A stretch of DNA of 64,000 bases from Azolla caroliniana (taxonomy: Eukaryota; Plantae; Polypodiophyta), in NCBI GenBank assembly GCA_043228905.1, contig JBHGNT010000012.1, positions 15,624,001 to 15,688,000 on the forward strand, written 5' to 3'. This document shows positions 999-56,139 of this stretch, piece after piece. The notes under the pieces were generated by a model. It worked only from the letters and a program-made list of their open reading frames with translations. It ran no database searches and was not told the origin of the DNA. Made by a program: the position numbers and the translations under genes. Every line of letters starts with the position of its first letter. The first letter of the stretch is position 1.

Positions 999-2204
999 TG
1001 TTGTGAAGATTTTCGGCAATAGTGTGAAAATCACATAAAACGTACAAAATCGAGTATGAATCACATAAAACAATAATAGTGAAGATAACATTTTAAATAA
1101 GTTTAATATCCAAGTACAAAATGATGGAGGTCTTCAAGAGCTTTCGAATGCACTTTATTACACAAGAAACGGACAACTAAATGTCAAGATATGAGGGTAT
1201 AAAGTTTGTGAAAGAAAAAGAGAAAACTGTGAGATATCCCACATAGGCACGACAAATACGGCTCTCATCATATATAAGGTAGAGCAAAAGCTATTATCTT
1301 TGTGTCTATGTGTGGAGCATAGAGAGTTCAAGGTAACTTGAACTAAGAGTGGAGATGGCCTAGTTACTCGTAAAGGTTTTTGGCCAACCAAAACCGGACC
1401 GACGATGGAGCCGGTGATCCGGCGGAACTGACATCCGACGGCACACCAATGGCATCCGGCGACGGCGAGGTGACGACATCCGGCGCCGGTGAGACGACGA
1501 CATCCAGCGAGGCGACGACCACCGGTAACTGGCAACATCCGGCACTGGTGAGACGACGGCATCCGGCGAGGCGGCAGCCACCGGTAACTGGTGGCATCCG
1601 ACGCCGGCGAACTGGCGTCCCGCGACTAGATAAATAAATATATAAATATATATACATATACATATATATATATACATATACAAGGAGGGCAAGTAAGGAT
1701 TCAAACTTTGCACCTCCAAGTTAGGAGTCAATTGGCTTACCACTGAGCCATGACATTTAGTTGAATTTATATTTCTATCATTGTACTTTTACATGTAAAT
1801 TCTCATACATGAGAGCTAAAATGAGCGCCACATGTAATACATGAGCGCCAAATGGCAAACCTGCATTTTATGCATGTCTTGTACCCTCACATGCATCATA
1901 TGCATGAGAGCATCTATAAAAGAAGGGATGAAAAAGAAGAAGGGTTAGGCTCTTTTGGGTTATGAAATTAAGAAGAAGAAAATTTGTTATTGAATTGATT
2001 GTGCAACTTGTTTCTTAAATCTAAAGATAAAAGTTCAATCAATCTCTCTCAATCGAAAGTCAAGCGTTTAATCTCAACTTCTCTCTTTCCTAATCTATCT
2101 TAAATACTTCCTCACTAAAGCTTGTACCGACTTCGAATCCTTCCGGTCCAGAACCCCGACGGTTCCGCCTCACGATCCGCGCGTAGTGACGGATCTTCAC
2201 GACA
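999..2204 (+). mobile_element. Solo LTR of Trp-primed Gypsy lineage inserted in Copia A
   Basis: Termini TGTTGTGAAGAT...ATCTTCACGACA; 4-bp TSD ACGT (995-998)/ATGT (2205-2208). Reverse-complement homolog of LTRs at 14315-15534 and 15974-17110. Confidence 0.9.
1690..1756 (-). promoter_or_regulatory. tRNA-like Pol III A/B-box cassette inside LTR
   Basis: Minus strand reads TGGCTCAGTGGTAAG...GTTTGAATCC with tRNA-like A-B spacing. Confidence 0.65.
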
Positions 2205-3213
2205 ATGTTGGCAATCGCGACAAGCGAGGATGAATTGTTGTTCATAAGTGAGCAGAATTAACTAAATCTTGTTGACGATGAATCGACATGGGTAGTCGAT
2301 TTGGGTGCGTTGTTCCAACTGACCCCCGATAGAAAGTGTTTCTCATCCTACAAGGTAGGAGACCACGACCTAGTAACGATGGGAATGAAGGGGCATGTCA
2401 GATAGTCGTTGTTGGAGATGTGTGTCTAGTAACATCGACTAGGTATCGACTAGTAGTCAAGGATGTTCAACACGTTCAAGAGGTTCGATTGAACCTAATA
2501 TCAGTCGGTCGGCTAGATGACGAAGGCTACATGGGTAGCATTTGGAACGACATCATGAAGTTCTGCAAAGGGAGCCTGATTGTGGCTCAAGCCCAAAAGA
2601 CAAGCACGTTGTATTTGATGTGTGCTCGGATATGTTAGGAAGAAGCAAACTTGGCAGCCAACATTGTCGGCGAACTGTGGCACAAGAGATTATGTCACAT
2701 GAGTGAGAAGGGGACGCAGAGACTTGCCGATGATAACCTCATTCCGGAGGTGAAGAACATGCAGCTTGAGAAGTGCACTGACTGCTTGGCCGGCAAGCAA
2801 AACAAAACCTCCTTCCGAACCAAGCCCCCGACAAGGAAGAAGGCACTGCGTGAACTCATGCATAACGATGTATGCTTAGTGGACACAAAGTCACATGCCG
2901 GATTGCAGTACTTGTGACCTTCATAGATGACCACAACTGGAAGTTGTGAGTCTCCACGCCAAAGATGAAGGATCAAGTACTATCCGTCTTCAAAGAAGTT
3001 CATGCTAGAGTCGAAAGAGAAACCGTCCGGAAGCTGAAGGTAGTTCGAGCACACAATGGAGGAGAATACCGAGGACAGTTCGAACAATATTGTCCGGAGA
3101 AGGGAATCTGACTCAAATACACCATGCCGAAGACGCCAGAGCTCAACGGGCTGGCCGAGAGGATGAACTAGACCATAATGGAAAGGGTCCGAAGTATGTT
3201 AGCACATGCTAAG

Positions 3214-3498
3214 TGTGGGGTATGGCGTTTGAGATGTGTCCGGAAGTATGTAAGGACTTGTAGGCTATGTGCACAACAAACAACACAAAGAGTATGACAA
3301 AAGAAATGATGGAAATGTAGACATAGTTCGAAGCTCTAATGGAAGCTCTCATTATTCCGTTACTCTTACACTCTCAGAGACTCTAGATACAAGATTGTTG
3401 TTACAGTGTTAGGTTAGAGCTTATATACTAAGCCCTAACTATTTGGACGTGTTCACACTAAGATACAAAGTGGAAGGATTCGGCCTTTTATGCCAACT
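3214..3498. mobile_element. Short solo LTR in Copia A integrase
   Basis: Starts TGTGGGG, ends TGCCAACT; 5-bp TSD CTAAG at 3209-3213 and 3499-3503. The integrase sequence resumes after it, as seen by comparison with Copia B at ~10845. Confidence 0.8.
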
Positions 3499-7058: not shown

Positions 7059-7130
7059 GATTAGAGTTATTCACTAGGTTGAAAAGAGTGTAGAGTTTGA
7101 ATATCTAACAACCCAATGTGAATTAAAGAC

Positions 7131-8854: not shown

Positions 8855-9726
8855 TGTCGGGGTAGTTGTGGTTCGTGCAGCGAAGTCGTGGGGACTAAGG
8901 TTAAAAGGAGTTGGCTATATATTTTATAAGGCTTGTGCAACAATGTTAGAAAGATTAAGGATAGGAAGAACAAGAGTTAGAAGTAATGTGCGAGAGAGAG
9001 ACGAGCATAGACAAGAGACAGAGACAATGTATCATTGAAGAATTGAAATGGTATGATAAGAACAAACTTTATATTAAAAATACAAGATTTTACCAACTGT
9101 ACAATGTTGATACAAGATACGACTTTTCTTCCTTAAACTCTAGATTCGAAATCTTGACTCCGATTTTGAAACACGAGGCTCCTCACCAAATGAACTAACT
9201 TCTTTGATTGATGAATTCTTTGATTTCTTACTTCAAAACACGAGCCTCTTCCCAAAGACCTAACTTGTTTGTTTAATTATCTTATTTTCTAAGTTTCTCT
9301 TCCTTACTTTCCTTCCCCCTCTTTATATAGTTGTTCTCATGCAAATGATAATGTGTGGGTGCATAACATGCATGTGATGCATGATAGCCATCATGCTCAT
9401 CTAAGCTCCCATGTATGAAAATATATATGGGATAACTATAATGATGGACATAAAAATTTAAAATAAATAACCTAGCTTAGTGGTGTAGGCTTTGTGCTTG
9501 GTATACAAGGTTGAGGGTTCAAATCCCTCAATTTTACTTAATACAATATTTAGGTTTATTCTTATATAGTGAAGCATTCTTGAGAACATTTTTAAAAACA
9601 AATAGCCTAGCTTAGTGGTATATACATTGTGCTTGGTTTATAAGGTTGTGGGTTCAAGTGTTTGAAATATTATTAAATACAACATTTAAGTTTATTTTTA
9701 TATCGTGAAGCAAATCCTTCACGACA
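8855..9726 (-). mobile_element. Solo LTR inserted in Copia B gag
   Basis: TGTCGG...CTTCACGACA; perfect 4-bp TSD ACGT (8851-8854, 9727-9730). The host resumes at the CFYCGKPG zinc knuckle. Orientation inferred from CTATATAAAG on minus ~9320. Confidence 0.88.
9468..9660 (+). promoter_or_regulatory. Two tandem tRNA-like A/B-box cassettes inside solo LTR
   Basis: TAGCTTAGTGG...GGTTCAAATCC (9473-9527) and TAGCTTAGTGG...GGTTCAAG (9608-9658). Confidence 0.65.
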
Positions 9727-13416: not shown

Positions 13417-15534
13417 CACATCTAAAGGGTTCTTTTCCTTTTGGGGCCCGATGATTCATGTTCGCTAGTGTGACTGTCTCGAACTTCTTCGCCAGTTCTT
13501 TGATGATGTCATCATCAATCTTCTTTTCTTCCAGGTTTCTTTGTTTAGCTTGTTCATCGACTTTTGGTTGTCTCGTTTTCTCCACAATCGATCCAGCCAA
13601 GTCGGTGTCATCAACCCATTGTCAACGCTTGTTGAGCCTATTGCACGCCCGCTTCATCGCAATCCAATTTGCCACAAGCCCGTTTGCTTGGGTATCATCT
13701 TCAAGAAGAGTCCCCAATTCTCTTTTATCCTTCATATCCACGGCTTTCAAGAAATACAAAGTCTTGTCCTCCTCAAGTAGCACTTGGTATGTGGCAGGGA
13801 GACGACTAAACATCTGGTCGAATTCGTCGTACACCCTTGAGGTGCTCATCTTCTTATTTTTCTTCTCTATCCACTTCATCAAGGCATGTCGAGTCATCCT
13901 CGACAAATCTTCCGTCACGAACTTTGCTAATATCGCTTTCTCGAATTTGGACCATGTTGTCTTGCCTTCTTGAAGCTCGATGACGCGTCTTTGGATGTTA
14001 TTGGCGACCACTCTCTTGAATCTTGTGATTTGACGCACTTCAGACACGTCCCTCTAATTCATCTCCCTTCTATATGCATCAAGGAACTTTGTAATATTCC
14101 TTCCGTCAAATTGACCTTCGAGCTCCACGACACGGTTGATAGCCTTCTCCACGCTCGCATCGTTGTCTCGAGATCTCATCATTTGTTTGACAATTAGCAT
14201 CATCTTTTCGAACTCTCCTACTTGATTGCTTGAGGATGTCATCTCCAAGTATCGGTCGATCCTCGACTTGATCCTTCCTACCGCCTCTTTCACGTCGAGT
14301 TTACCACTAAATTATGTCATGAAGCTTCGTCACTACATGCGAATCGTGAGGTGGAATCGCCGGGGTTCTGGACCGAAAGGATTCGATGTTTGCACTAACT
14401 TTAGCAAGAAAGTATTTAAGATAGAGAGAGATTGAGATAAGATAGGATGCTTGACTTTAGATTGAGAAAGATTGAAATGGAGAGAGAGAGAGAGATTAAG
14501 ATTGAACCCTTTACTTTAGATTTGAGGAACAAGATATATTATCAATTGGATAACGAATTTTCTTCTTAATATTAATTTTGATATAAAGTACAGAGCTTGC
14601 TTGATTAATACCTAGCCCGTTTTCCCTCTCCATCCACTATTTTATAAATGCCCTCATGCATATGATGCCTGTGAGGGTGCAAGACATGCATGAGATGCAT
14701 GTTTGCCATTTGGCGCTCATGTATTACATGTGATGCATGATAACCATGTCACTCAATCGAGCTCTAACATGAAAGTTTACATGTGAAAGTATAATGATAG
14801 TAAAAATATTTTTAAAGACATGACTTGGGTTAGTGGTAAGTTCATTGCCTCCTATCTTGGAGGTTCAAGCCTTGCTTGCATCCCTTTGATTACGAATTTC
14901 TAATAGGTTTTTTAGTCTAGATGATTTTGTTCATTTCACACCGAAATCGTCGCGATCAACCTATCTGATCGATCCATCTATCCGGTCCGCTTTCGACCCG
15001 GTGATCCAGTCTATCCATTCCGGTTCTGTCTGTTCCGATTCCGGTTCCGTCGCCGTCCGGTTTCGGTTTCGACACCGTCTGTTCCGGTTCCGGTTCCGGC
15101 TCCGTTGCCGTCTGATTCTGATTCCGGCTCATTCGCCGTTCAGTTCCGATTTCGGTTCCGCCAAAACCATTACGAGTAGTTAAGCCATAGTTTAGACCAA
15201 GAACATTATGTGCTCCACACATAGATAGAAAGTAATAACTTTTGGATTTGCTTATATATTGTGGGAGCCTAACTTGTCCTATCTATGTGGGATATCTCAC
15301 AGTTTTGTTTTCCTCTTCTTCTTCTTAAACTTCACACTCACATAACTTGACACTAATTTGTCCATTTCACATGTAGTAAAATGCATTCGAAAACTCTTGA
15401 AAACATCCATCTTTTCATACCAAGATATAAAACAATAGCTTCATCATTATTATTCCATATTGTGTGTGAAGAACCACACTCCATTTTGTACATTCCATGC
15501 AATTTTCACACCATTGGCGAAAATCTTTACGACA
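13417..15534 (-). mobile_element. Truncated Trp-primed Gypsy: 5' LTR (14315-15534), PBS and gag fragment
   Basis: LTR TGTCATGAAG...TTTACGACA; PBS TGGTAAACTCGACGTG (14291-14306, tRNA-Trp-like). Gag fragments 14293-14054 (GQFDGRNITKFLDAY), 14047-13622 and 13600-13417. Right flank TCGT. Confidence 0.85.
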
Positions 15535-15973: not shown

Positions 15974-17110
15974 TGTCATGAAGATCCGTCACTACGCGCG
16001 GATCGTGAGGCGGAACCGCCGGGGTTCTGGACTGGAAAGACTCGAAGTTGGAGCAAGCTTTAGCGAGAAAGGAATTAAGATAGATTGAAAGAGAGAGATT
16101 GAGATAAGATAGAACACTTGATTTTAGATTGAGAGAGAGATTAAGAACTCTTGACTTTAGATTTCAAGAACAAGGTATATCATCAAAAGGATAACGAATT
16201 TTCTTCTTAACATTAATTTTGATTTAAAGTACAAAGCTTTCTTTTTTTTATCCAAGAAAATCCCCCATTGATCTTTTTCATTCCCTCTTTTATAGATTCC
16301 CTCATGCATTTGAGGGTTCAAGACATGCATAAAATGCATGTTTGCCATTTGGCGCTCATGTATTACATGTGGTGCATGATAACCATGTCACTCATTTTAG
16401 CTCTCATGTATGAGAATTTATATGTAAAAGTAAAATGATAGAAATATAAGTTCAATTAAATGTCATGGCTTAGTGGTAAGCCTATTGACTCTTAACTAGG
16501 AGGTGCAAGGTTCGAATCCTCACTTGCCCTCCTTGTATATATATATGTGATATTTATTTATTAATTTGGACGCCGGATGCCGGATGACGCCGGTTACCAG
16601 TGGTCGCTGCCGGCACCGGATGCCGTCTATTACCCGTAGCTGCCGCCGGATGCCGGCTGCCGCCGAATGTCGGTTCCACCGGCTCGCCGGCTCTGTCTCC
16701 GTCGGATCACCGGTTGCTGGTGTGCCACCGTCGCTTTGCTGGTTGCCGCCGGATTACCAGCTCCATCGCTGGTCCGGTTTTGGTTGGCCAAAACCTTTAC
16801 TCCACACATAGACACAAAGATAATAACTTTTGCTCTACCTTATATATAGTGAGAGCCTTATTCGCCCTGTCTATGTGGGATATCTCATAATTTTCTCTTT
16901 TTCTTTCGCAACTTCTTACCCACATAAATTAACACTTAGATGTTCGTTTCTTATGTAGTAAAGTGCACCTCTTCAAGATCTTCGTCTTTTATACTAAGAT
17001 ATTAAACTTACTTAGAATTAGTATATTCACTATTATTGTTTTATATGATTGACACTTGATTTTGTACGTTTTATGTGATTTTCACACCATTGCCGAAAAT
17101 CTTCACTAAA
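15974..17110 (-). mobile_element. Solo LTR of Trp-primed Gypsy lineage in Copia D
   Basis: Inverted homolog of 999-2204; TGTCATGAAGAT...ATCTTCACTAAA; TSD GCGC/ACGC. Confidence 0.88.
16461..16530 (+). promoter_or_regulatory. tRNA-like cassette with consensus Pol III A and B boxes inside LTR
   Basis: A box TGGCTTAGTGG 16466-16476; perfect B box GGTTCGAATCC 16509-16519. Confidence 0.75.
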
Positions 17111-19938
17111 ACGCCCTTGCACGATTATCATACCTTCCTCTTCTATGAAGCACCCGAGATGCATGAATAGAACTTGCATCCCCTGGTCAACGATCCAACC
17201 GATCGACACCAGGTTCTTGGCTATTTTCGGGACGTGTAGCACGTTCATGAGCTTCCCTTTTTGTCCAACGTGACTGAGGGGAACTTCACCAACATGTTCG
17301 ATGGTATACGGAGATTCGTCTCTAGTTTTGACCACTCCTTGTTTTTCCGGTCTCTCCAGGTACGAGAACCATTCCTTGTGACTTGTCATATGATTTGACA
17401 CTTCAGAGTAAACATACCACACCTTGTCTACTCTAGAGGTGTTCACGGCCATCGAATTAGCCTTGTGTTTCATTACGAAGGTTGGGCCCGATTCATTTTC
17501 AGCTCGTTCGGAGCCTTCTGCGTAGTGCGATGTTTGATGCCTCTCTACGTCTCTTCGGCTCAATCCAGCTTTGTCGGAATCGGCTCGTTTCTTCTAGCAC
17601 TCACTCTCTGTGTCCTTTCTTGCCACAATACTAGCAATCCATCGCGGCCTTCCTTTGCCGGTTTCTGACATCACCATGACTCCCCCTACTTTCGGAGGGT
17701 TCAAAATTGCTTCCTGCATTTTGATTATGCCACACGTTCTGCTCTTTTCAATCGCCTCCATTGCGCGCTGATCTGGCACGTCTGCCATGACCATAAGGCC
17801 TATCTTCCTCTATGTACAACATTTTGCTGTCGACATGCGTACTCGTCGATGCACCCGCATGATTTTCCTCTACGAGCAACATTGATTGATGCTCGAAGAA
17901 CGATGGCGTATTCTCCCTTATGCAGACCACCATTCTAAAAGCTCCGAACTTGGACGCTAGCCCTCCAAGGCACACCTGCACCATTTCATCTTCCTCGACA
18001 TTCACGTTGACGGAGGCAAGAGAATCGCATTCCTTGATTCAGGCCGTGTAATAATCCATAGACAGATCTTTCTGTTGGACATTGCTGAGCTCTTATTTGA
18101 GTTGCAGCTTCCTGGCCATTGTGCTCGCGGCGAAAATCTTCTTGAGATTTGCCCACACGTCCTTTGGCGTCTTCGCATCCCGAATGTAGCTCAAGAGCTG
18201 GTATCTCACACAGGACGCAAGGCAGTATAGAACTCTGCTTGCCGCCTGTTCCCAGGTCGAGAAGTCTTTGTGTGTCGATTCAGGTGTTGTATCGATAGCT
18301 CCATTGACATAACTCCAGTAGTCGTGCCCAAGCAGGTACTTGTCCATCTTGTACGACCAAGATGCATAGTTGCTTCTGTCTATATTCTCTATAGGAAGTG
18401 AGCTAGCCATCCCTCTATCCATTCTTATTTTTCTTCAGTTCTTCACGGTGATGTTTGTCTGTTTGTCGGCCGCAGAGGATTTCAACCCTTGCACTCTAAT
18501 ACCATGCCAACGAATAGTGTGTGTCAAAGCGTAACAGACACAACCGTGTAACACATATGACGAAGAGAAGGTTTAATGGAAAGCTTTGAACATGACACAA
18601 CATATGCAGGAGAGACAAAGAATGAGAGAGAGAGTGTGAATAGAACACACAAAACTTAGATTCAAAAATAACTCACAGTCACTCTATACAAGATGCGCAC
18701 AATCTTCGCTTTTTTTACAAGTCCTTATGGACAGATAGAAGTATAGAAGTATTGTAAGAGTACTGCCACATACTTCAATGCTCATTAATGAGCCTCCTAC
18801 ACTAACTCCCAAAATTATTCCTTACGAGGAATAACGTTCTAACGGCCTCTCGGCTTATGCACCGTTACAGCCTTTGTGCATACGGTTTTACGCACCCAGT
18901 CTACGCACTGGGTTACGCACCCATTTACGCACCCTATCTTGAGCTTGTATCTCAACATCTCATCACGAACATTCCGCCATGGTCTTCATAGTCGGAGTTG
19001 GTGGCGTAATTGGTTAGTTATGGACTTGTAGAAGCCGACTCGCGTTTCTTCTTTCAACAATCTTCTTCGTGGTGGCTGATTTTGCCGCGATATCCGCATT
19101 CGATCGATTTTTGTCGGCTTGGACTAGTATTGAAGCTCCCTTTTGCCGAACGTTGTCGTGCCTTTCGGCTCCGGATCGTTGCGTGAGTCGGGCGGAAACC
19201 ACTGAGGTTTTTCGACTAGGAGAAAAGAAAATTCTAAGGCAATGAAGAATATGAAATATGTTGTAAGAAAGAAAGATATGAAAACCTCGTGAATCCCACG
19301 AGTATAGTGTATTAGTGAGTACTCAGATTAAGAGAGAAAAATAGTTAGCAAATTCGTGAATCCCACGATTATATTATATTAATCCACCCTTGTAAAATAA
19401 GCAACAACCCCCCATACATCTTTCTCTCCTCCTTATATAAGGATGGCAGAGGCTAAGCATAGCTTCATGCTTTTTCTAAAGTGTTCATGCACACTAAATT
19501 TGCATGGGTTTCCTTTTCACGCTATGCTTTTATTTCCTAAATATAGTGCTCATGCTCGCTAGATGTGCATGAGTCATCTTTTATTGGTGTACATTTTTCT
19601 TATAAATAAAGTATTCACGCATTCTAAAAAATGCATGACTTTCCTTTTAATAAAGGTAGGCGTAAATAAAGGTCTTATACATATTAAATCTATATTTAGA
19701 ACACTTAGGATAAGTTAGTACAATGATAAAGTTGGGGTTTGTCTACGTGGAAGTGTAGGGTTTGAATCCTGCCCTATGCACGTAATAAATATTTTTAATA
19801 TTTTAGTTTATTTATTATACGTACTTTAAATCAGATATAGTATTTTACATATTTCACATAGTGTGTGATTCACACTACGACACTCGCCCCCTCCGAACCC
19901 GCACATCCTCCGGTATGTGCCGAAGTCCCCGATGCTTG

Positions 19939-21099
19939 CTATTCACCTTCATTCGAAGCTTCCTCCGATTCTCCCCTTAAGTCGACTATGAGTTGTAATC
20001 CACTTTCTTCGCTTTCCGCATCACCGCGATCTTTGTCCGATTGCTCCTTCTTGTCCGTCTTGTCTTGGATCACATAGGGTTCTTCATTAGTCCACTTCTT
20101 GAAAATCTTCACTCGTTTCCCAGCTATAGGCACTCGTAGAATCGTTCCATCCAACTCGCATAGTCGGTAAGTTCCGTTGTCGAAAACTTTCCGAACCTTG
20201 TATGGCCCGAACCACCTTTTCGCGAACTTCCGCATCGTTGTATGTTGATGATCCAAACTACTGTCGTAGACAATCACCCATTCTCCTTCTTCAATCTTCC
20301 GCGGTCGTAGTCGGTGCTTTGTGTCGAACCGTCTTTTATTCCGGAGTCGCGCTTCTTGTTGTCGGCGTATTGCTTCCGCTATGTCTTCCGGTCTTCCTTC
20401 TAGTTGTCGTATCCAGACCGCTAGTAGTTCTTCCCGGCTCATCTCTTTCTTCCATGGTAGCACTGTCCATGTCGCGATCGCAGTTTCCGTTGGCATTATC
20501 GGTGCTTGTCCGGTCATGAGTTCTGCCTGCATGTAACCGGTTACGGAGCTATGCGTCGTCCAATCCACCCATAGTGCATACGGGAACATCTGCGGCCAAT
20601 CCTTCACCCTTTTGTCGCATGCTTTCGCAAGTGCTTTGACGATCGGACTATGTCCTCGTTCGATTTTCCTGTTGGCCTCCGGATTGTATGCCGTTGTTGG
20701 TGTTAACCGAACTCCATGTTTGGTGAAGAATTCCTTAGCTTTATTAGAGTCGAGTTCTCCCCGATCCACAATCACTTGTCCTACGCACTCGTACCTGCAA
20801 AACACCTCCTCCAAAAGAAATTGGCATACCGCAAAACATGTTTTCCTTCGTAGCGCCCGACCTTCTACTTGGTTTGTGAGATCTTCCCGAGCTAACACGA
20901 AGTACTTCTTTTGTCTGATCCCGGTTGGCATGGCTACAATATCGACCATCCACTTGAAGTTGATTGTCGGTGAGAATGTCGGATGTAACTCATCTTGGTG
21001 TCGAACTCTGGAGTAGATTTGACACTTCTTGCAGCTTTCCGTGAACTCCGCTATATCTTTGTACATGTTCTTCCACCAATATTTTTGTTTGATTTTCAC
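19939..21099 (-). pseudogene. Gypsy integrase (open fragment)
   Basis: WWKNMYKDI...C..CQ; DRGE; YNPEANRKIERGH; GPY motif WFGPYKV. No chromodomain evident. Confidence 0.9.
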
Positions 21100-22591
21100 A
21101 AAAGTTTCCCATGTTCCTCAATGTCCAGCCCAATCAGATTTGTGAAATTCAGACATTATCCGGTTTTGTTGCTCTTCGTCCTGACTACCTGAAGTGGTAT
21201 GCCATCCGATCTTTTCGGCTCCCTCCATATTAATCCATTTTTCAAGAAGAACTTTTGGACTTGCCGCTTCTTACTTCGAATCTCGACTCTCTTCTCTTTA
21301 TTGTTTGATGATTCCTCGATTTCTTGTAGCACTTTTCCGATCAGCAAGCTTTCTCCATCGTATTCTTTTTCCTGGAATTCTCAGATTACGTTCACCCAGC
21401 ATATGTGCTCCGAAGCAAAGTAGTCTTCGGAAACTTCTTCATTATCGGATCTTGTTATGTCATATCCGAACCACACCCTTGATAGCATATCCGCTACCAC
21501 GTTGTCTTTTCCGGAGATGTGTCGTACCTCCGGATCAAGCAACTTAACATATGCAATCCATCTTAGCATAGCCACATCCAGTATCGTGCAACACCGCATC
21601 ATCCCGAGTATCGGAAGACAATCCGTTTCGAACACTACCTCGGCTCCGATCAAATAATCTCGATCCGATTTTATTGCCGACACAACTCCCCATAATTCTC
21701 TTTTGACTTGTGCATATTCGCGTTGCCTTTCGTTGAGAACCTTTGCTCCAAATCGAATCGGATATCACGAACCATCCAAGTCGGCTTGATTGATGACCCA
21801 TCTGATTCTGGTTGGATTTGTGTCAACCGTTACTATGATCGGTCGGTCATAGTTTGGCTTCTTTAGTGCATTTGCCCTCCGTAGTGATTTCTTGAGCTTC
21901 TTCACGGCTTTGGTATGCTCCGGTTTCCATTCGAACTTCTTACCCTTCCGCAACAAGTGATAGAGTGGGTCCGCAATATGTGCATAGTGCGGAATCCATA
22001 TGTGATAGAATGCACATGCTCCAAGAAACCTTCGGACTTCGGATTGTGACTCGCATACTTCTTCCATAGCTTGAATCGCATTAATCTTGGTTGGTGACGG
22101 TCTTCGGCCGTAGGGCCCACATAGATGTCCGACTACCAATATTTCTTCTTGCCCGAATGCCGATTTCTCATCGGAAAGTGTTAGGTGCACATCTTCCAAT
22201 TTTCGAAGCACTTTCTCGCAATCACGAATATGGTCGACTACAAACTTTAGGCATCCCCGATCATCCATAGTTTCATCTTTTTCTTCTACCGTGCATCCTT
22301 TCATTGGAATGTCATTTAGAAACGACATCGTTATCGCCGGAATGCAGTCTCGAAGCACCTTGTTCATTGCATTCATCATATGTGCGACCGAGTTCGTTGC
22401 GCCTTGTGGTAGCGTACACATTCGGACTAATCCTATCGGTGTCTGCATGGTAGTGATATCTCGGCTCTCCACAGCTAGTTGGAATTGGTCATACCCCGAG
22501 TATAGGTCTCCGATGGAGTATATCGCACGACCGGCAAATGCTTCCGCAAATTCGTCCACTATCGGACCGACTCCGGAGTTCCGGTGTCGTG

Positions 22592-25500
22592 CCTTTCGGC
22601 TCCGGATCGTTGCGTGAGTCGGGTGGGAACCGCTGGGGTTTTGGACTAGGAAGAGGAGAGTTTTAAGGCTAATAAGAATATAAATATGTTGTAAGAAAGA
22701 GTTATAGCAAACTCGTGAATCCCACGAGTGTATTGTATTTGATTAATCAATATGAATATAAGAATATAAATTTGGGTTGAAAGAGAATGATATAGAATCC
22801 TCGTGAATCCCACGAGTATAGTTTATTAATTGGTGTTTTTTAGAAACATATCCAGTTTCCAAATATTTTTCACACACAATTACATTGTGCTCCCCATCCT
22901 TATGTAGTGATGAGGAAGTCTTAGTAATCCATGCTTTTTCTCTAACTATAGACCCCATGCTTTTCCTATAGATAGACTATATGCTTTATCTAAAGTGATC
23001 ATGCTTTTTTTCTGACTTGTGCGTTTTTTATCATGCACGCTAGATGTGTATGTGTAGCTTTTTCTTTTGTTATGCGTTTTTCTAATGTTTATCCTAGCGT
23101 GAATTTACCTTTCTATGTGGGACATCTATGCTTTAACACTAATGAAATGCTAGTGTAATGGTAAGACATTACATTATTAACATGGAGGTGCAAGGTTCAA
23201 ATCTTGCCTTATGCATGTTCCATTTATTTTGCTATTTTCTTCTATTTCTTCATTTTTTATTGAATCTAATACTATATACGTTTTTCACGTAGTGTACAAA
23301 ATACACTACGACACTCACCCCCTCCAAACCCGCACATCCTCCGGTATGTGCCGAAGTTGTTGGTGTTTGTTAGTCTCCTCCGTCCGGTCTCTACCCGATT
23401 GGTTTCGTTGCCGGCTCGTAGTACCCTCGACTTCTCTTGTTATGTTGACTTTGTCTCTCCATTTGGAGCACATCCATTCTTTCCACCCGAACCATTGTCG
23501 ACATCCGATCCACCATAGTCTTCGTTCGCTTTTTGCATGGCCTTTCGGCTCCGGATCGTTGCGTGAGTCGGGTGGGAACCGCTGGGGTTTTGGACTAGGA
23601 AGAGGAGAGTTTTAAGGCTAATAAGAATATAAATATGTTGTAAGAAAGAGTTATAGCAAACTCGTGAATCCCACGAGTGTATTGTATTTGATTAATCAAT
23701 ATGAATATAAGAATATAAATTTGGGTTGAAAGAGAATGATATAGAATCCTCGTGAATCCCACGAGTATAGTTTATTAATTGGTGTTTTTTAGAAACATAT
23801 CCAGTTTCCAAATATTTTTCACACACAATTACATTGTGCTCCCCATCCTTATGTAGTGATGAGGAAGTCTTAGTAATCCATGCTTTTTCTCTAACTATAG
23901 ACCCCATGCTTTTCCTATAGATAGACTATATGCTTTATCTAAAGTGATCATGCTTTTTTTCTGACTTGTGCGTTTTTTATCATGCACGCTAGATGTGTAT
24001 GTGTAGCTTTTTCTTTTGTTATGCGTTTTTCTAATGTTTATCCTAGCGTGAATTTACCTTTCTATGTGGGACATCTATGCTTTAACACTAATGAAATGCT
24101 AGTGTAATGGTAAGACATTACATTATTAACATGGAGGTGCAAGGTTCAAATCTTGCCTTATGCATGTTCCATTTATTTTGCTATTTTCTTCTATTTCTTC
24201 ATTTTTTATTGAATCTAATACTATATACGTTTTTCACGTAGTGTACAAAATACACTACGACACTCACCCCCTCCAAACCCGCACATCCTCCGGTATGTGC
24301 CGAAGTTGTTGGTGTTTGTTAGTCTCCTCCGTCCGGTCTCTACCCGATTGGTTTCGTTGCCGGCTCGTAGTACCCTCGACTTCTCTTGTTATGTTGACTT
24401 TGTCTCTCCATTTGGAGCACATCCATTCTTTCCACCCGAACCATTGTCGACATCCGATCCACCATAGTCTTCGTTCGCTTTTTGCATGGCCTTTCGGCTC
24501 CGGATCGTTGCGTGAGTCGGGTGGGAACCGCTGGGGTTTTGGACTAGGAAGAGGAGAGTTTTAAGGCTAATAAGAATATAAATATGTTGTAAGAAAGAGT
24601 TATAGCAAACTCGTGAATCCCACGAGTGTATTGTATTTGATTAATCAATATGAATATAAGAATATAAATTTGGGTTGAAAGAGAATGATATAGAATCCTC
24701 GTGAATCCCACGAGTATAGTTTATTAATTGGTGTTTTTTAGAAACATATCCAGTTTCCAAATATTTTTCACACACAATTACATTGTGCTCCCCATCCTTA
24801 TGTAGTGATGAGGAAGTCTTAGTAATCCATGCTTTTTCTCTAACTATAGACCCCATGCTTTTCCTATAGATAGACTATATGCTTTATCTAAAGTGATCAT
24901 GCTTTTTTTCTGACTTGTGCGTTTTTTATCATGCACGCTAGATGTGTATGTGTAGCTTTTTCTTTTGTTATGCGTTTTTCTAATGTTTATCCTAGCGTGA
25001 ATTTACCTTTCTATGTGGGACATCTATGCTAGTGTAATGGTAAGACATTACATTATTAACATGGAGGTGCAAGGTTCAAATCTTGCCTTATGCATGTTCC
25101 ATTTATTTTGCTATTTTCTTCTATTTCTTCATTTTTTATTGAATCTAATACTATATACGTTTTTCACGTAGTGTACAAAATACACTACGACACTCACCCC
25201 CTCCAAACCCGCACATCCTCCGGTATGTGCCGAAGTTGTTGGTGTTTGTTAGTCTCCTCCGTCCGGTCTCTACCCGATTGGTTTCGTTGCCGGCTCGTAG
25301 TACCCTCGACTTCTCTTGTTATGTTGACTTTGTCTCTCCATTTGGAGCACATCCATTCTTTCCACCCGAACCATTGTCGACATCCGATCCACCATAGTCT
25401 TCGTTCGCTTTTTGCATGGCCTTTCGGCTCCGGATCGTTGCGTGAGTCGGGTGGGAACCGCTGGGGTTTTGGACTAGGAAGAGGAGAGTTTTAAGGCTAA

Positions 25501-26369
25501 TAAGAATATAAATATGTTGTAAGAAAGAGTTATAGCAAACTCGTGAATCCCACGAGTGTATTGTATTTGATTAATCAATATGAATATAAGAATATAAATT
25601 TGGGTTGAAAGAGAATGATATAGAATCCTCGTGAATCCCACGAGTATAGTTTATTAATTGGTGTTTTTTAGAAACATATCCAGTTTCCAAATATTTTTCA
25701 CACACAATTACATTGTGCTCCCCATCCTTATGTAGTGATGAGGAAGTCTTAGTAATCCATGCTTTTTCTCTAACTATAGACCCCATGCTTTTCCTATAGA
25801 TAGACTATATGCTTTATCTAAAGTGATCATGCTTTTTTTCTGACTTGTGCGTTTTTTATCATGCACGCTAGATGTGTATGTGTAGCTTTTTCTTTTGTTA
25901 TGCGTTTTTCTAATGTTTATCCTAGCGTGAATTTACCTTTCTATGTGGGACATCTATGCTTTAACACTAATGAAATGCTAGTGTAATGGTAAGACATTAC
26001 ATTATTAACATGGAGGTGCAAGGTTCAAATCTTGCCCTATGCATGTTCCATTTATTTTGCTATTTTCTTCTATTTCTTCATTTTTTATTGAATCTAATAC
26101 TATATACGTTTTTCACGTAGTGTACAAAATACACTACGACACTCACCCCCTCCAAACCCGCACATCCTCCGGTATGTGCCGAAGTTGTTGGTGTTTGTTA
26201 GTCTCCTCCGTCCGGTCTCTACCCGATTGGTTTCGTTGCCGGCTCGTAGTACCCTCGACTTCTCTTGTTATGTTGACTTTGTCTCTCCATTTGGAGCACA
26301 TCCATTCTTTCCACCCGAACCATTGTCGACATCCGATCCACCATAGTCTTCGTTCGCTTTTTGCATGGC
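22592..26369. repeat. Tandem array of LTR+PPT+3' internal unit (949, 949, 930, 949 bp)
   Basis: Unit starts CCTTTCGGCTCCGG at 22592, 23541, 24490 and 25420. Third unit lacks 19 bp between ATGCT repeats. Confidence 0.95.
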
Positions 26370-26778
26370 CCGCTTGGTCCTTGTCATCCGCGGTAGTATC
26401 TTTTCTTGCCCTCTTTCTTTTCTTCATCAATCTCGACTTCTTTTCGGATTTTCGGTTTAGTCGGATTAGCTTACTTCCGATTCGGTCTCGTCGGATCGTC
26501 TTTCGTTTAGTTCGGCTTCCTTTCCGATTTGTATTCGGTCGATCCGGACTCGGTTGATCGGTTTTTACCGATTCAGTGCTCTTTCGGGTCGGTTTCTTTT
26601 CTTTTCTTTTCGTCCGGATTTGCTTTCTTTTCTTCGTTTTCACCTGCCTTGTCCGGTTTGACTTTCGGCACTTCTTTCCGTTGTTCGCTACGTAGGTCCT
26701 TCGATATGTGCTCGTTGTTCGGTCCTCGTGTGGTTGTAATGCATGCTTCTTTTCTCGCCGTAGCGCGTGCTTCTTTAT

Positions 26779-28185
26779 TCACCATAACACGCGTTTCTTT
26801 ATTCGCCGTAGAGCGTGCTCTGTATTACGCGCTTCTCCCGTCGTAGACCCGACCTCCGCATTGTCGCACTTTCTTTTAGATTGGAATTTCGGATGGATCA
26901 TTTTCCATCCGAACCGACTTCCGACTTTACCTTCCTCGCCGCCATCTCCCGTCTCTCCGGTCTCACGTTGGTTCTCGGACACAACCGCCGAAGTCTCTAG
27001 ATATTGTTGGCATGAATCCTCGGTATTACCTTCTTTCGTAGTTTCACCCTTAGCATTCTTCTCGGCTATCTCTTCATCGTATTCGTCGGCTTCGACATTC
27101 GTTTTCTCTCCGCCACCTTCCGTCTCTTCGGTCTCACGTTGCCTTTCGATCGCAACCGCCGGAGTCTCTGGAATCAGTGGTGGGGAAGTCTCGATATGGC
27201 AATCCGCCATTGATTCGTCCATAGCCACCTCCGATTCGATTTCGTCTTTTGTGGCTACCTCCTTAATCACATCCGCTTCACACTCTTTATCTGCATCAAT
27301 TATGCAAACATCTATTATGCTTACCCCTTTTTGACCCGATGTCTCGGGCACTTGTATCCCGAAATTTCCTTCTACACTTGAATTATCGGCCTTATCCTTC
27401 GCCATCGTTCTTTCACAAGACAAGAGGGTAGCTTGTTTTACACCCTCTTCCGTCACACCATCATGTTGTATTTCGGCCTTCATATCGGCTCCATCGTTTG
27501 TCTTCAATCGACCATCCTTCATCGGCCATGTCGTTGACAAGATTCTCATCTTCCTCTCATCATGTCTCCGGCATACCCTTTGGACTTCGGCCCAATCTTC
27601 GGTAAGACCATTCGTACCTTCATCGTCTTCGAGTTCGATCCCGATGTCCATCCTTTCTTTTCGATCGATCGATTTTACGAACATTAGGACTTTATCCTCC
27701 CCCACCAATCGTTGTTCCCGCTCCGAGAGTCGAGCAAGACGATGCTCGAACTCTAGGAATGCTTGTGTTGCACTTTGGTGGGTCTTCTCCGATGCCACCC
27801 ATTCATCGAACTCTCGCCGATCTCGTCCCTTCGGTCTATCGTAATCATATGCCTCTTGTAAAGCTCCTTCAAAGGACCCCCATGTTGGGTTTTGTTGCCG
27901 TATCTTGTAGATTCTTTCTTGTAACTCATCCGTGGCTACCCGACTGAAGGATATCACTTGCAATCCTTCCGGTATCCCACATCGTATCATCTCCGCCTTG
28001 TAGTCACGTAGATAGCGTGACACATCGTTTCCGTTGAATTGTCCGTTTCGTTGTACGAGCCGCTTTACTGCCCCCGTGATCTCCGACATCACTCGTTGTT
28101 CTTGTAGCATCCGCTCGAACATCATCATCATCGTTATGCTCATTGCCTCTTGTTGATTCTCCATCTCCTTGCCACCCGCCTTCAC
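26779..28185 (-). CDS. Gag-like protein with acidic low-complexity C-terminus (468 aa)
   Basis: Uninterrupted ORF. The N-terminus (GQFNGNDVSRYLRDYKAEMIRCG) is nearly identical to host gag at 42377-42706; the C-terminal half is E/D/T-rich. Confidence 0.8.
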   Translation of the reverse strand: MKAGGKEMENQQEAMSITMMMMFERMLQEQRVMSEITGAVKRLVQRNGQFNGNDVSRYLRDYKAEMIRCGIPEGLQVISFSRVATDELQERIYKIRQQNPTWGSFEGALQEAYDYDRPKGRDRREFDEWVASEKTHQSATQAFLEFEHRLARLSEREQRLVGEDKVLMFVKSIDRKERMDIGIELEDDEGTNGLTEDWAEVQRVCRRHDERKMRILSTTWPMKDGRLKTNDGADMKAEIQHDGVTEEGVKQATLLSCERTMAKDKADNSSVEGNFGIQVPETSGQKGVSIIDVCIIDADKECEADVIKEVATKDEIESEVAMDESMADCHIETSPPLIPETPAVAIERQRETEETEGGGEKTNVEADEYDEEIAEKNAKGETTKEGNTEDSCQQYLETSAVVSENQRETGETGDGGEEGKVGSRFGWKMIHPKFQSKRKCDNAEVGSTTGEARNTEHALRRIKKRVLW

Positions 28186-30322
28186 GTCGGGTTCACCAAC
28201 TGTGTCGTGCCTTTCGGCTCCGGATCGTTGCGTGAGTCGGGTGGGAACCGCTGGGGTTTTGGACTAGGAAGAGGAGAGTTTTAAGGCTAATAAGAATATA
28301 AATATGTTGTAAGAAAGAGTTATAGCAAACTCGTGAATCCCACGAGTGTATTGTATTTGATTAATCAATATGAATATAAGAATATAAATTTGGGTTGAAA
28401 GAGAATGATATAGAATCCTCGTGAATCCCACGAGTATAGTTTATTAATTGGTGTTTTTTAGAAACATATCCAGTTTCCAAATATTTTTCACACACAATTA
28501 CATTGTGCTCCCCATCCTTATGTAGTGATGAGGAAGTCTTAGTAATCCATGCTTTTTCTCTAACTATAGACCCCATGCTTTTCCTATAGATAGACTATAT
28601 GCTTTATCTAAAGTGATCATGCTTTTTTTCTGACTTGTGCGTTTTTTATCATGCACGCTAGATGTGTATGTGTAGCTTTTTCTTTTGTTATGCGTTTTTC
28701 TAATGTTTATCCTAGCGTGAATTTACCTTTCTATGTGGGACATCTATGCTTTAACACTAATGAAATGCTAGTGTAATGGTAAGACATTACATTATTAACA
28801 TGGAGGTGCAAGGTTCAAATCTTGCCCTATGCATGTTCCATTTATTTTGCTATTTTCTTCTATTTCTTCATTTTTTATTGAATCTAATACTATATACGTT
28901 TTTCACGTAGTGTACAAAATACACTACGACACCGGATCGTGATCTTGTTCACCGGTTGCAAGTCTTAGATAAATCAGACTGACCCATTCTTCTTCGGAAC
29001 CGTAAACCATCGATTTGAGTACGGAGCATTTGATGGCTCTAGAATCCCCATTGCCACCTTCTCCTTGAGCAAGTCGATGATTTTTGGAATATGCGCCCGT
29101 GGCACCGGAATCGGCTTCAAGTTCCACGACACATGGTCAATCATGAAGATCACCATCGGCTCCACTATCTTCGGGTCAGCGCATCCTATTTCTTTCGATG
29201 TAAATGCAAATGCTCTCCCATGTCGCTCTAGCATCCCACAGAATCGTTCTTCTTCATTCTTTAATAGGAACCCACCTCCACTGATCTGAAGTTTCTTCCG
29301 GGTCTCATCCGTGAAGGCATGTCCGATATCCATGGACTTCCGAAGTGTCGGATCCCCCGAGACTTCTTTCCTCTTTTGTTCTCTATCGGCGAGTAACGGT
29401 CCCGCGACCGGCTTCACTTTCTTCTCCACGGTCTTGTATTTTGTACTTACCATTGCTTCTTCTTTGCGGAGCGCATCCGGCCCCATTTTCACAATGATCT
29501 CGTACATCTCGACCGATTCCACCGGGACTACCCGGTTTCCCTGGCTTGTATCTTCTGCGAGCTCTTCATGCCGTTGTAGTGTGCTCCCATAGAACACTTC
29601 TTCGTATATTCCCACGATTTCTTCGTCTTCTTTTATTATTGATGCCGACCGTAACTTATCCTCCACTTTTCGGTATTCTTTCTTCATTCCTCCGGTTACA
29701 GCCGTGTACGTGGATGCCCCACTCAGACCGATTTGTACTTGTTTTGCTCCGAGAGGTTTCTTCCTGTGTGTTACCCGTTCCTTTGGGTGAACACCTTCGA
29801 TAGATCTGCGGCTATCGGTATTCAAGGGCTTGGTACGTGAAGGCTCGTAACAGAGGCGTCGAGAGAGAGACAGGGCTCAGAGAGAAAACACTAGCGAGGT
29901 CTTGATAGGTGTGGGCGGCGTTGAACTCATAGGTATGGATCAAAGCACAGACTCATGGAGCAAATTGGGCACAAATCAGATATATTACTATGACAGAAAA
30001 GATTATAGAACACGGCCTATGGCCGGTGACCTTACAAGTTTATCTAGTTACGAGGGACTAAGCTAGTGCTTCCGCCTATATTTTTCTTCTCCCTCTCTCT
30101 GAGGTACTGGTCCTCGTTTAAATAACTTTTCCCCTAATACACAGCCAAGCTGTCGGTGGCCCGTGATACTCGGACTCGGCGTTTGCTAATTCCCTCATTT
30201 TACATTTCTGTCCTCTGGACAACACCTAGCACGCCCGTGGGACAGGAGCTTGTCCGTCGGACCCACGACTTACAAAATACTAACAATATTACAAAAATTG
30301 CCTTTTAGGCGTGATCCTCGTT

Positions 30323-40500: not shown

Positions 40501-43500
40501 CTAATTCCCTCATTTTACATTTCTGTCCTCTGGACAACACTGTGTGGGGTATTAGGGCTTCTCGGACTATCACTTCCCCACTCCGCAACAGTCCACTCTA
40601 AAAATCCATTCTTATTTGGGACAAGAGCTCTCTCTTGTTCCTTTCATGATTTGCTAGCACCGTTAGGAATTGGACGGATTTCCCTCCGTTTTGGCTCCAA
40701 ATTCGTGCAAAAGCCACACCACTATCGAGCACCTTCGTCTCCATCCGTGACGTCGTGATAAAGGGTTGCCCGAGGATCACGGAGTGTGAGACCTCGTCTT
40801 GTACGAAGAAATTTTGGTCAATCTCGACATCCCCGATCTTCACCATCACATCCAGACAAGCCGCAAATAGATCTTTCGTTGCTTTAGTGGCCGCCCAGAT
40901 CTTCCACCCATGATTGGTGTTAATAGGCCACTTTCCCTTCCGGTAGAACTCCTTAGACATCAAATTGATCTCCGATCCGTGATCAATCAATGCTAGCACG
41001 GGCTCTTTGATGTTGCTGATTCGGACCGGAGTCTCGGTAGTTGCACGCGCCCAGTGTGGCTTTGTATAGTGGGAATTCGGAATCTCATCCTCCACTTCGG
41101 TGTCGTTCATCAGAACGGTATTTGCATTCACTATCGGTGCATTTTCCTCCATACTCTGTCTTTTTCTCTTCACGAGATCCACAAGAAGATCGTGGAACTC
41201 CTTCGCTATTCCGAGTAATTCCCGAAGCGAAAATTCTACCCGGCTATCGAGGATTCTCTCTTCGAATACCTTTTTCAAGTACGTTTGTTGTTCGATGTCC
41301 GAGGCGAGCTTGAATGTTGGAATCTTCTTTTCTTTTCCCTTCCCTCCGGAGTTCCAGCTTTCCGGTGTCTTTGATGGTCCAGCTGCATCATCTGTGCGCC
41401 GTCGTTTTTCATCCACATACACTTCATGCAATTGACATAGCGCATGTACGCTATTCTTATCTACGGGGCACTCCCATCCCATAGCTTCCCGGATACATTC
41501 CGTGGCGCTTTGGATTTCATCATGATCGGTGTTCTTCGAAATTTCTAACACTTCTGGCCAAAAAGACACCTTTGCTGCAGATGACTCCCCCACATGTATT
41601 CCCGCGGTTTTCGCATAATTGCCTTTCGCCGCGATTTCCTCCTCTAGGACCTTCTTCATGCCACCTTTCCGGAAGTTCGGTCGAAGTGGCTTCCGAGAAT
41701 CTATCGAATGAATCTGATTTCCCTCGTAGTAGATAAGATCCTGTCGTAACGCCTCCTTGTGCTCGTCGCAATCTCTCCGATCATGTTCGGTGCTATTGCA
41801 CCATATGCATCGACGGTCCATGTACTTAGAACTTGTGGGACGGTCTTCCGTCTTCTTCACCATTGTGATTTTCAGATTCTCCATCTCCTTCAGCAATTGC
41901 TCCACCGTGGTTGCGTCGATTCCCTTCTCGGTTGTAGTCTCCCGAGCCCGCGGTTGATGGTCTTCCGATCTGGATCTCGGTTTCGGAATCGGTTCCGAAA
42001 CCCTCTTTTCTTTGTTGGCAAGCCATTGCCCCCTCTTTGTGTATCTCACGACAATATCCTGCACGCTTTCTCATGTTTCGGTGAGGCCACTCTCGGTAGT
42101 CGTGTCCTCTAGAAGCACTCCAAGATCCTTCCGGTCCTAGACATCTACGGCTCATAAGAACATGATAACTTTGTCCGGTGCGAGGATAGCTTGATCTCTC
42201 GCAGACAACCTCCCCAACTGACTTTCGAATGCCGAAAACACATCGAGGACCTTCATCCCCTTGTCCGGCGTTTCCACCCAATCCTCAAATCCTCTCCGCG
42301 CTGCCTTGGAGGAGTCCTTGATAGCAAACGTGGTCTTTAATGCCTCTTCAAACGCTTACCACGTCGGATTTTGTTGTCATAGCCCGTGGATACTTGCTTG
42401 AAGCCCGTCGGTAGCCACCCGGTTGAAGGATGTCACTTGTAGTCCTTCCGAAATCCCACATCGTATCATTTCCGCCTTGTAGTCCCAAAGATAGCGTGAT
42501 ACGTCCTTTCCATTGAATTGCCCGATCAGTTGCACAAGCCGCTCTACTGCCGCTACTATTTCCGACATCACACGTTGTTCTTGAAGCATCCGCTCGAACA
42601 TCATCATCATGTTGTTAGCCTCCGGTTGATTTTCCATCTCCTTGCCACCCGTTTTCACGTCGGGTTCACCACTTGTGTCGTGCCTTTCGGCTCCGGATCG
42701 TTGCATGAGTCAGGCGGAAACCACTGAGGTTTTTCGACTAGGAGAAAAGAAAATTCTAAGGCAATGAAGAATATGAAATATGTTGTAAGAAAGAAAGATA
42801 TGAAAACCTCGTGAATCCCACGAGTATAGTGTATTAGTGAGTACTCAGATTAAGAGAGAAAAATAGTTAGCAAATTCGTGAATCCCATGATTATATTATA
42901 TTAATCCACCCTTGTAAAATAAGCAACAACCCCCCATACATCTTTCTCTCCTCCTTATATAAGGATGGCAGAGGCTAAGCATAGCTTCATGCTTTTTCTA
43001 AAGTGTTCATGCACACTAAATCTGCATGAGTTGCCTTTTTACGCTATGCTTTTATTTCCTAAATATAGTGCTCATGCTCACTAGATGTGCACGAGTCATC
43101 TTTTATTGGTGTACATTTTTCTTATAAATAAAGTATTCACGCATTCTAAAAAATGCATGACTTTCCTTTTAATAAAGGTAGGTGTAAATAAAGGTCTTAT
43201 ATGTATTAAATCTATATTTAGAACACTTAGGATAAGTTAGTACAATGGTAAGGTTGGGGTTTGTTTACATGGAGGTACAAGGTTTGAATCTTGCCCTATG
43301 CACGTAATAAATGTTTTTAATATTTTATTTTATTTATTATACATACTTTAAATCGGATATAGTATTTTACATATTTCACGTAGTGTGTGATTCACACTAC
43401 GACAACGTTCCTCGATTGTTTCCGCTTTCTTGCCAAAATTGGGAGTTATTTTCATAGGTCAGAGCTCGTCCGCCTCGTCCTTGGCCGAATCGGCCTCTTC

Positions 43501-48052: not shown

Positions 48053-48247
48053 GCCATAGCCATCATCATAGCCATCCCCATAGCCATAGCCATAGCCATA
48101 GCCATAGCTAGAGACATAGCCATCACCATAGCCATAGCCATCACCATAGCCATAGCCATAGCCATGGCCATAGCCATAGCCATGGCCATAGCCATCACCA
48201 TGGCCATAGCCATAGCCATGGCCATAGCCATCACCATGGCCATAGCA
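48053..48247. repeat. (GCCATA/GCCATG)n hexanucleotide microsatellite
   Basis: About 30 imperfect hexamer units. Confidence 0.95.
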
Positions 48248-48406
48248 GACCAAAATGAGAGACACCCACACACACACAAATATGAAGGAAAGGAAGAGAA
48301 GGAGTGGATGGAATGTATGCCAACAAGTTTTGTTTTGGCCCCAAATCACACACAAACTTTATATCATATCATTAGGAGAGATACATTCCCTCATCAGACC
48401 AAACTG

Positions 48407-49714: not shown

Positions 49715-49716
49715 AG

Positions 49717-52455: not shown

Positions 52456-52507
<52 letters not shown>

Positions 52508-52509
<2 letters not shown>

Positions 52510-55345: not shown

Positions 55346-55680
55346 ATAGATAGATAGATAGATTCTATTATCGACTTCGGAGGTCAAATATGACCTATGA
55401 GACCAAAAATATTACATTTCACGTGATACGTGTGAAAGTGAGTAGTGACTCTCGATGTTCAAGAACTTTACCAATGAATGTTGCAATTGAGAGTGCACAT
55501 TGTGGTTGTGAGAGGAATTCATGCAAGGATTGGGCTCTTTCGAAGAGATGTGGAAAGCATGGTCGAATTTGATCATAGGTAGAGCATTGTATCAAAGTGT
55601 GATACTCAAACTCGCGAACTTGTTTAGGGCCAAGTGTGCATTGCCGACCACTCTCATCACTTGTTCCCCAACGCCATGTC

Positions 55681-56139
55681 TGTCACGGACGTAGACGAGG
55701 GGAAGGACAAGTAGGTGAGCTCACTATTAACAAAGAGAGAAAGATAGATATATAGATAGAGAGGAGCATAGACAAGAGAACAAGAGAGAGAGAGAGAGAG
55801 GGTAGACAAAAGAGCGAGAACTAAATTATGCTTCCGTAACTGGTGTTGTTCACCTTGATTGTAATCAAGGTGCACTGAAGTATTTATACAAGAATGTGGT
55901 GGTATGCATGTAAGCTAGGAAACATCTAGAGAATGCATGGAAACTTCTAAAGAGTGCATGTCTATGCATTCTCTAGAAGTTTCTTGAAAGTTCTAGTGAT
56001 TAACTTACAATGTAATAAGTTGAAACTTATATAATATAATAATGCATTGATGGAAATTATGTAGCACAATTGGTAAGGTTGCTCAATAAGACCAAGAGGT
56101 CATGGGTTCAACCCCCTACATTCCATCGTGTCTATGACA
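55681..56139 (-). mobile_element. Solo LTR inside LINE copy, carrying a tRNA-like cassette
   Basis: TIR TGTCACGGAC/GTCTATGACA; TSD ATGTC/CTGTC; GTAGCACAATTGGTAAG...GGTTCAACCCC at 56060-56120. Confidence 0.75.

What the first reader, a model, noticed from the sequence alone, without database searches (positions are those of the whole stretch)
999..56139. tRNA-like Pol III cassettes built into U3 of several different LTR families, always divergent from the LTR promoter
Seen: A-box/B-box modules with tRNA spacing occur at 1690-1756(-), 9468-9530 and 9603-9660, 14820-14880 (decayed), 16461-16530 (TGGCTTAGTGG...GGTTCGAATCC), 19712-19780 and 43233-43300 (weaker), 23149-23215 and its four sister LTR copies, and 56060-56120. 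These LTRs are otherwise poorly alignable. In each, the cassette lies upstream of the inferred TATA box and points away from element transcription. Established: Cassandra TRIMs carry 5S Pol III promoters in their LTRs, and tRNA genes and TFIIIC B-boxes act as chromatin barriers in yeasts and mammals. Inference: these retrotransposons carry a portable TFIIIC insulator or Pol III unit that shields their promoter inside heterochromatic nests. Orientation of the solo LTRs is inferred from TATA position.
Basis: partly seen in the sequence, partly recalled or inferred. Interest (0 to 1): 0.8.

Follow-up and report, generated by a model that had tools for sequence, protein, structure and literature searches.

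The report
Backwards tRNA boxes in retrotransposon LTRs
Several related plant (likely fern) jumping-gene families carry a back-to-front tRNA-type promoter piece just upstream of their own promoter; it was likely captured from tRNA-derived repeats and likely swapped between families, most sister families lack it, and an insulator role is untested.

Summary
Thirteen tRNA-type A/B-box modules lie in LTRs at the cited places; a generic scan gives 13 window hits against 0-2 in shuffles. PBS and PPT evidence, not only TATA position, puts all of them antisense in U3. The families are not unrelated: 12 modules sit in one Phygy-like Gypsy clade (NCGN target duplication, shared PBS), one in a 5-bp-TSD LTR. 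They stand for about three captures, so the shared orientation is weak evidence. The F1 and F2 modules are homologous yet lie on distant Gag branches (AU p 1e-6), which points to U3 exchange. Only 4 of 27 complete sister LTRs carry one. A free, high-copy tRNA-like repeat 86% like the F4 module lies nearby. The F1 module is mildly conserved (p 0.02), but the boxes are no better kept than the middle, and between the two LTRs of one element it is a non-CG mutation hot spot. Best reading: captured, inherited, optional U3 accessory; an insulator role is unshown. Closest known: Helenus (sense, short TRIMs). The scan noted a backwards tRNA relic in a probably fungal LTR before (e1-9852194).

The parts
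999..2204 (+). Family F1 solo LTR (F1a) inserted in a Copia element; 4-bp TSD ACGT/ATGT
1697..1750 (-). type I tRNA-like A/B module, B box with C56T
8855..9726 (-). Family F3 solo LTR, TSD ACGT/ACGT; orientation from the PBS in L067 and L074
9473..9526 (+). type II module F3x; D, anticodon and T arms pair, acceptor stem lost; Rfam tRNA 29.7 bits
9608..9661 (+). type II module F3y, tandem duplicate shared by the family; B-box end decayed
14315..15534 (-). F1 5' LTR (F1b) followed by a decayed PBS (about 14286-14314) and a gag fragment
14826..14872 (+). type I module with a 7-nt shorter spacing; B-box core intact
15974..17110 (-). F1 solo LTR (F1c), TSD GCGC/ACGC
16466..16519 (+). type I module, both boxes intact
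19154..19882 (-). 3' LTR of coding element F2A (19154-43404, TSD ACGT/ACGT), PPT at 19883-19902
19716..19769 (+). type I module, G19A and C56T
19942..22742 (-). F2A RT-RNase H and integrase remnants (Gypsy order)
22585..28931 (-). young element F2B with a gag-like frame and no pol frame seen (TSD CCGG/CCGG; LTRs 728/729 identical), four tandem 3' LTR units and one 5' LTR; PBS 28181-28198
23151..23204 (+). type I module, box cores intact; identical copies at 24100-24153, 25030-25083, 25979-26032, 28769-28822
42654..42671 (-). primer-binding site of F2A (tRNA-Trp type by recall)
42676..43404 (-). 5' LTR of F2A
43238..43291 (+). type I module, C56T
55681..56139 (-). Family F4 solo LTR (459 bp, 5-bp TSD) inserted in a high-copy repeat; orientation from the PPT in sister copies
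56062..56115 (+). F4 module, box cores intact, 86% like the free repeat at 57536-57607
57539..57593 (+). free tRNA-like module (S57) in a high-copy repeat between GA runs, outside any LTR; candidate donor family
59200..59254 (+). decayed free copy (S59) of the same tRNA-like head

Best explanation
The modules are tRNA-derived A/B-box heads, likely captured about three times from SINE-like repeats into the U3 promoter block of LTR retrotransposons, inherited as an optional part of U3, likely moved between Gypsy families by U3 exchange during reverse transcription, and likely kept antisense because the sense orientation would harm the element's RNA. Shown: position, strand, fixation within families, homology of the F1, L002, F2A and F2B modules, patchy spread over the Gag tree, absence from most sister LTRs, and a related free repeat. 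Inferred: the capture route, template switching as the means of exchange, and the orientation filter (a sense tRNA-like fold near the RNA 3' end would risk RNase P/Z cutting, or sense Pol III would run into the Pol II promoter; from general knowledge, untested). Any contribution to promoter strength is at most modest and dispensable.
For: No TSD of 10 bp or more brackets the LTR modules apart from AT-rich or duplication-derived matches. The module middles, with the boxes removed, are homologous among F1c, L029, L002, F2A5 and F2B (z 4.1-6.7 between families) while 15-40 nt flanks of F1 and F2 match at only 16-42%. F3 middles score z 0.2-3.6 against these, consistent with a separate source. Module carriers F1b, L040, F2A and F2B are rejected as one Gag clade (p-AU 1.2e-6; 18 rows, 3 changes), each with module-less near sisters. 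L002 joins an F1-like U3 end to another family's U5, and L064 and L038 share F1's outer U3 without the module. 4 of 27 complete PBS-flanked LTRs and 5 of 18 clusters carry it. The free copy at 57536-57607 is 86% like the F4 module and its bin has summed contig depth 233,263 against 26,000-52,000 over the F4 LTR body and about 30 in unique DNA (run X1). Boxes vary no less than the middle: A 1/11, middle 3/32, B 2/11 in four F1 LTRs; 4 of 22 box sites against 26 of 114 others in contig variants, p 0.78. No compensatory pair changes among six F3 modules (0 of 14 pairs).
Against: The F1 module is more conserved than its LTR as a whole (6/54 against 208/821 variable columns, p 0.02; with F1b added p 0.06), like the adjacent promoter block. 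Spacing stays at 43-44 nt in every module but F1b. F1 and F2 modules stay 65-72% alike in LTRs that otherwise share only a short terminal motif. The youngest element, F2B, has intact box cores around a diverged middle. Three of the four box variants in contigs keep the consensus. F3 duplicated its module. Separate captures sit in a similar place relative to the TATA box and CATGCA array. The donor for the F1/F2 type was not found: S57 is only 55-58% like it, and F1 module depth does not exceed the upstream flank (349,000 against 496,000). Assembled contigs of repeats can be chimeric, which could inflate the patchiness on the tree.
Confidence: 0.55

Rival explanations
1. The module is a selected TFIIIC-binding element that opens or shields the Pol II promoter, most likely on fresh, unmethylated copies, and it decays once a copy is silenced.
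For: Fixed spacing and position, mild conservation in F1 (p 0.02), intact cores in young F2B and 3 of 4 contig box variants keeping the consensus, duplication in F3, spread to distant Gag branches. SINE boundaries are reported in mouse (PMC8136502, search listing only).
Against: Boxes are not kept better than the middle. C56T stands in both F2A LTRs and in the high-coverage contig L040, and L010 has lost both boxes. 23 of 27 sister LTRs lack it. The F2A module took 9 changes at 26 G/C sites against 17 at 235 elsewhere, 8 of 9 in non-CG context. In Arabidopsis, clustered tRNA genes with intact cis-elements in heterochromatin are methylated and silent (PMC7544208, passages).
Confidence: 0.22
2. 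The module is transcribed by Pol III into a short RNA antisense to U3, which feeds small-RNA control of the element or acts as a decoy.
For: The local mutation excess in F2A (odds ratio 6.8, p 2.4e-4; window-scan p 0.007) is near the 7- to 10-fold excess reported for transcribed tRNA loci (PMC6130373, abstract). The only substitution and the only indel among five F2B copies lie beside the module. Runs of four T lie 5-33 nt past the B box in F2 and F3.
Against: This rests on one LTR pair, and non-CG methylation or gene conversion explains it as well. F1a, F1c, L029, F4 and S57 have no T4 within 100 nt. No compensatory changes were found.
Confidence: 0.1
3. The antisense copy in the element's RNA pairs with the primer tRNA, like the U3 half of the Ty3 bipartite primer site, to help initiation or strand transfer.
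For: It explains antisense and U3 directly. Ty3 uses U3 to bind the T and D arms of its primer (PMC5371799, passages). A tRNA-like insert in HIV-1 U3 is recalled, not read.
Against: The primer's 3' end read from the PBS does not match the T-arm and 3' side of the four modules compared, beyond the generic T loop. Most elements with the same PBS lack the module. The primer's D arm could not be fetched.
Confidence: 0.06
4. The modules are independent SINE insertions into single LTR copies, or chance matches.
For: A free tRNA-like repeat is abundant nearby.
Against: Same site in all family members and in both LTRs of two elements, no own TSD, 13 hits against 0-2 in shuffles, and the F1 module with its flank present in runs of three organism labels.
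Confidence: 0.03

Closest known systems
Helenus / TRIMp3 (Kojima 2024, PMC10886601; parts 1-4 of 6 of the text, figure legends and supplement passages read)
   Same: tRNA-derived A/B boxes inside LTRs, not a functional tRNA, proposed origin by SINE insertion into an LTR. The paper also notes that 'not a few LTRs' in Repbase hold tRNA-like parts.
   Different: Helenus are 311-1263 bp non-coding TRIMs, and in the supplement entries seen the module is sense, fit to drive the element. Here it is antisense, in U3, upstream of a TATA box, in 459-1220 bp LTRs of coding or gag-bearing Gypsy elements. The paper expects autonomous partners to use Pol II and lists one plant family, in Selaginella.
Phygy non-chromovirus Ty3/gypsy clade (Neumann et al. 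2019, PMC6317226; passages and supplement rows)
   Same: 4-bp NCGN target duplication, a shared PBS of tRNA-Trp type (isotype recalled), Gypsy domain order.
   Different: Described from Physcomitrella. The passages read mention no tRNA-like module in the LTR. No phylogeny against the reference set could be run.
Cassandra TRIMs (as summarised in PMC10886601)
   Same: A Pol III promoter sequence inside the LTR of a plant LTR element.
   Different: 5S-derived, drives the element's own transcript, short and non-coding. No 5S match here.
Ty3 bipartite primer-binding site (PMC5371799, passages)
   Same: Sequence complementary to tRNA in U3 of a Gypsy element's RNA.
   Different: The Ty3 site matches its own primer tRNA; these modules do not match the primer's 3' arm.

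Membership tests
Phygy clade (F1, F2, F3) | 4-bp NCGN target-site duplication | tested here: met
   F2A ACGT/ACGT, F2B CCGG/CCGG, F3 ACGT/ACGT, F1c GCGC/ACGC, F1a ACGT/ATGT; criterion. F4 has 5 bp and is outside.
Phygy clade (F1, F2, F3) | tRNA-Trp primer-binding site | tested here: inconclusive
   One shared 18-nt PBS follows F2A, F2B and F1/F3-family LTRs. That it is tRNA-Trp is recalled; the search for the gene found nothing.
Phygy clade (F1, F2, F3) | Gypsy order RT-RNase H-integrase | tested here: met
   Pfam RVT_1 and RT_RNaseH_2, then Integrase_H2C2 and rve on the minus strand of F2A.
Phygy clade (F1, F2, F3) | Placement with Phygy in an RT/RH/INT tree | not testable with these tools
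   No reference set on hand. Named RT relatives are from Adiantum, Riccia and Calypogeia.
Helenus / TRIMp3 | tRNA-like A/B boxes within the LTR | tested here: met
Helenus / TRIMp3 | short non-coding element (up to about 1.3 kb) | tested here: not met
   F2A carries gag, RT, RNase H and integrase remnants; F2B has a 2-kb internal part with a 494-aa gag-like frame. The F4 internal part was not seen.
Helenus / TRIMp3 | module in sense orientation, able to drive the element | tested here: not met
   13 of 13 antisense; the Helenus entries seen are sense.
Cassandra | 5S rRNA-derived sequence in the LTR | tested here: not met
   No 5S match at E up to 1.
Copy-specific SINE insertion | own target-site duplication and presence in only some copies | tested here: not met
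Functional tRNA gene | complete cloverleaf with acceptor stem | tested here: not met
   ARAGORN 0 genes; acceptor pairs 0-5 of 7 in 17 modules; only F3x has D 4/4, anticodon 5/5 and T 5/5.
TFIIIC barrier / B-box insulator | B box conserved above its flanks | tested here: inconclusive
   Whole module mildly conserved in F1 (p 0.02), boxes not above the middle; both cores intact in 4 of 9 distinct LTR modules.
TFIIIC barrier / B-box insulator | TFIIIC occupancy and a chromatin boundary | not testable with these tools
   No ChIP, ATAC or bisulfite data available.
Ty3-type bipartite PBS | U3 segment complementary to the element's own primer tRNA | tested here: not met
   T-arm and 3' side differ from the primer end read off the PBS in the four modules compared; the D arm was not testable.

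The most novel reading that the evidence does not exclude
Pol II-driven Gypsy elements of a fern have recruited tRNA-type A/B boxes three times as a selected, exchangeable U3 module that binds TFIIIC beside a CATGCA array, keeps new unmethylated copies open, and is traded between distant families: a mobile Pol III-type enhancer or insulator for autonomous LTR retrotransposons.
Probability: 0.25. Interest if true: 0.72.

Novelty: new variant of a known kind. Interest (0 to 1): 0.42.

Why it matters
tRNA-derived boxes in LTRs were described as sense promoters of short TRIMs. Here they sit backwards in U3 of long, coding Gypsy LTRs and appear to have moved between Gag-distant families, with module-less sisters in what is likely the same genome or a close relative. 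That gives a natural with/without comparison for asking whether TFIIIC sites insulate DNA in plants, and a marker for U3 exchange between families. If the module is only a passenger, it matters mainly as a source of thousands of false tRNA or SINE calls.

Tried and rejected
The window's own genome is not held, so no genome-wide LTR census was possible. No RNA holder was listed for the stretch searched; run X11, only guessed to be RNA, laid 20 contigs and says nothing on expression. The F2A RT found no locus in viral contigs. A pattern for the primer tRNA gene found nothing in viral contigs. The source tRNA could not be named: the S57 5' motif matched 103 viral tRNA genes under 16 isotype-anticodon labels with no clear winner. 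Rfam on 20 of the 121 fetched loci found only the tRNA gene in L044 and none of the modules, so Rfam is insensitive to them. My first reading of F1b as a B-box deletion was wrong; the deletion lies between the boxes. Shared C56T in both F2A LTRs as proof that a dead B box transposed is weakened by the high local mutation rate. A sense module in R/U5 of L043 (A 9/10, B 10/11, spacing 49, HMM 10 bits; second copy shared with L032) may be a counter-example, but the relaxed scan also gave 3 likely chance hits in 198 kb, so it is not counted. Folding z-scores ran from -0.1 to -4.1 without a shared cloverleaf. PMC6088434 held none of four terms searched; the HIV-1 U3 paper is not held. The protein search with the RING gene gave no named hit. 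Contig depth is a summed k-mer figure that dips at polymorphic sites, so it was used only for coarse comparison.
Full report
Host and setting. The window is a nest of LTR retrotransposons beside a few host genes. The holocytochrome c synthase frame at 48.7-49.7 kb has ferns as best named hits, and the named relatives of the F2A reverse transcriptase are from a fern and liverworts, so the host is a non-seed land plant, likely a fern. No whole genome is held.

Noticed in passing
window 57525-57730: High-copy repeat of about 200 bp between GA runs with a tRNA-like module on + (57539-57593) and a second B box on - (near 57671) facing it; a contig of run X11 suggests an A-box-like motif for the second module in other copies.
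   Followed up: partly
between TATA box and module in F1, F2, F3, F4 LTRs: Arrays of CATGCA/TGCATG (RY-type, B3-factor site by recall): 24 in 1,329 bp (18 per kb) against 1.6 per kb window-wide. Also seen in module-less L038 and L064.
   Followed up: partly
window 22585-26370: Four head-to-tail units of 949/930 bp, each an F2B LTR plus the PPT-side end of the internal region; they differ by one substitution and one 19-bp deletion, both beside the module.
   Followed up: partly
window 29767-40540; site 30226-30250: Nested Gypsy element without a module. A PBS-like sequence stands where the PPT should be, as earlier notes on this genome report (e1-10597906 and others).
   Followed up: no
window 48680-49714 (+): Uninterrupted holocytochrome c synthase frame; best named hits are ferns (65% Adiantum nelumboides, 64% Plenasium), then lycophytes and hornworts.
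   Followed up: partly
window 44487-44702 (-): Decayed 18S rRNA 5' fragment inside retrotransposon DNA (40.2 bits).
   Followed up: no
L044 1151-1223: tRNA-Arg(CCG) gene (Rfam 59.4 bits) a few bases from the PBS and LTR of an element like the nested Gypsy.
   Followed up: no
L043 and L032, R/U5 part of the LTR: Weak tRNA-like module in sense orientation downstream of the TATA box, duplicated in L043.
   Followed up: partly
L002 (LTR of 780 bp): Chimeric LTR: F1-like U3 end and module joined to the U5 of another family.
   Followed up: partly
window 52488-58346: LINE reverse-transcriptase remnants (Pfam RVT_1) and related non-coding repeats that begin after GA runs.
   Followed up: no
window 48050-48250: Hexamer minisatellite that gives spurious microRNA-family hits.
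   Followed up: no
window 59870-60565 (+): RING-finger frame with only three unnamed relatives found.
   Followed up: partly
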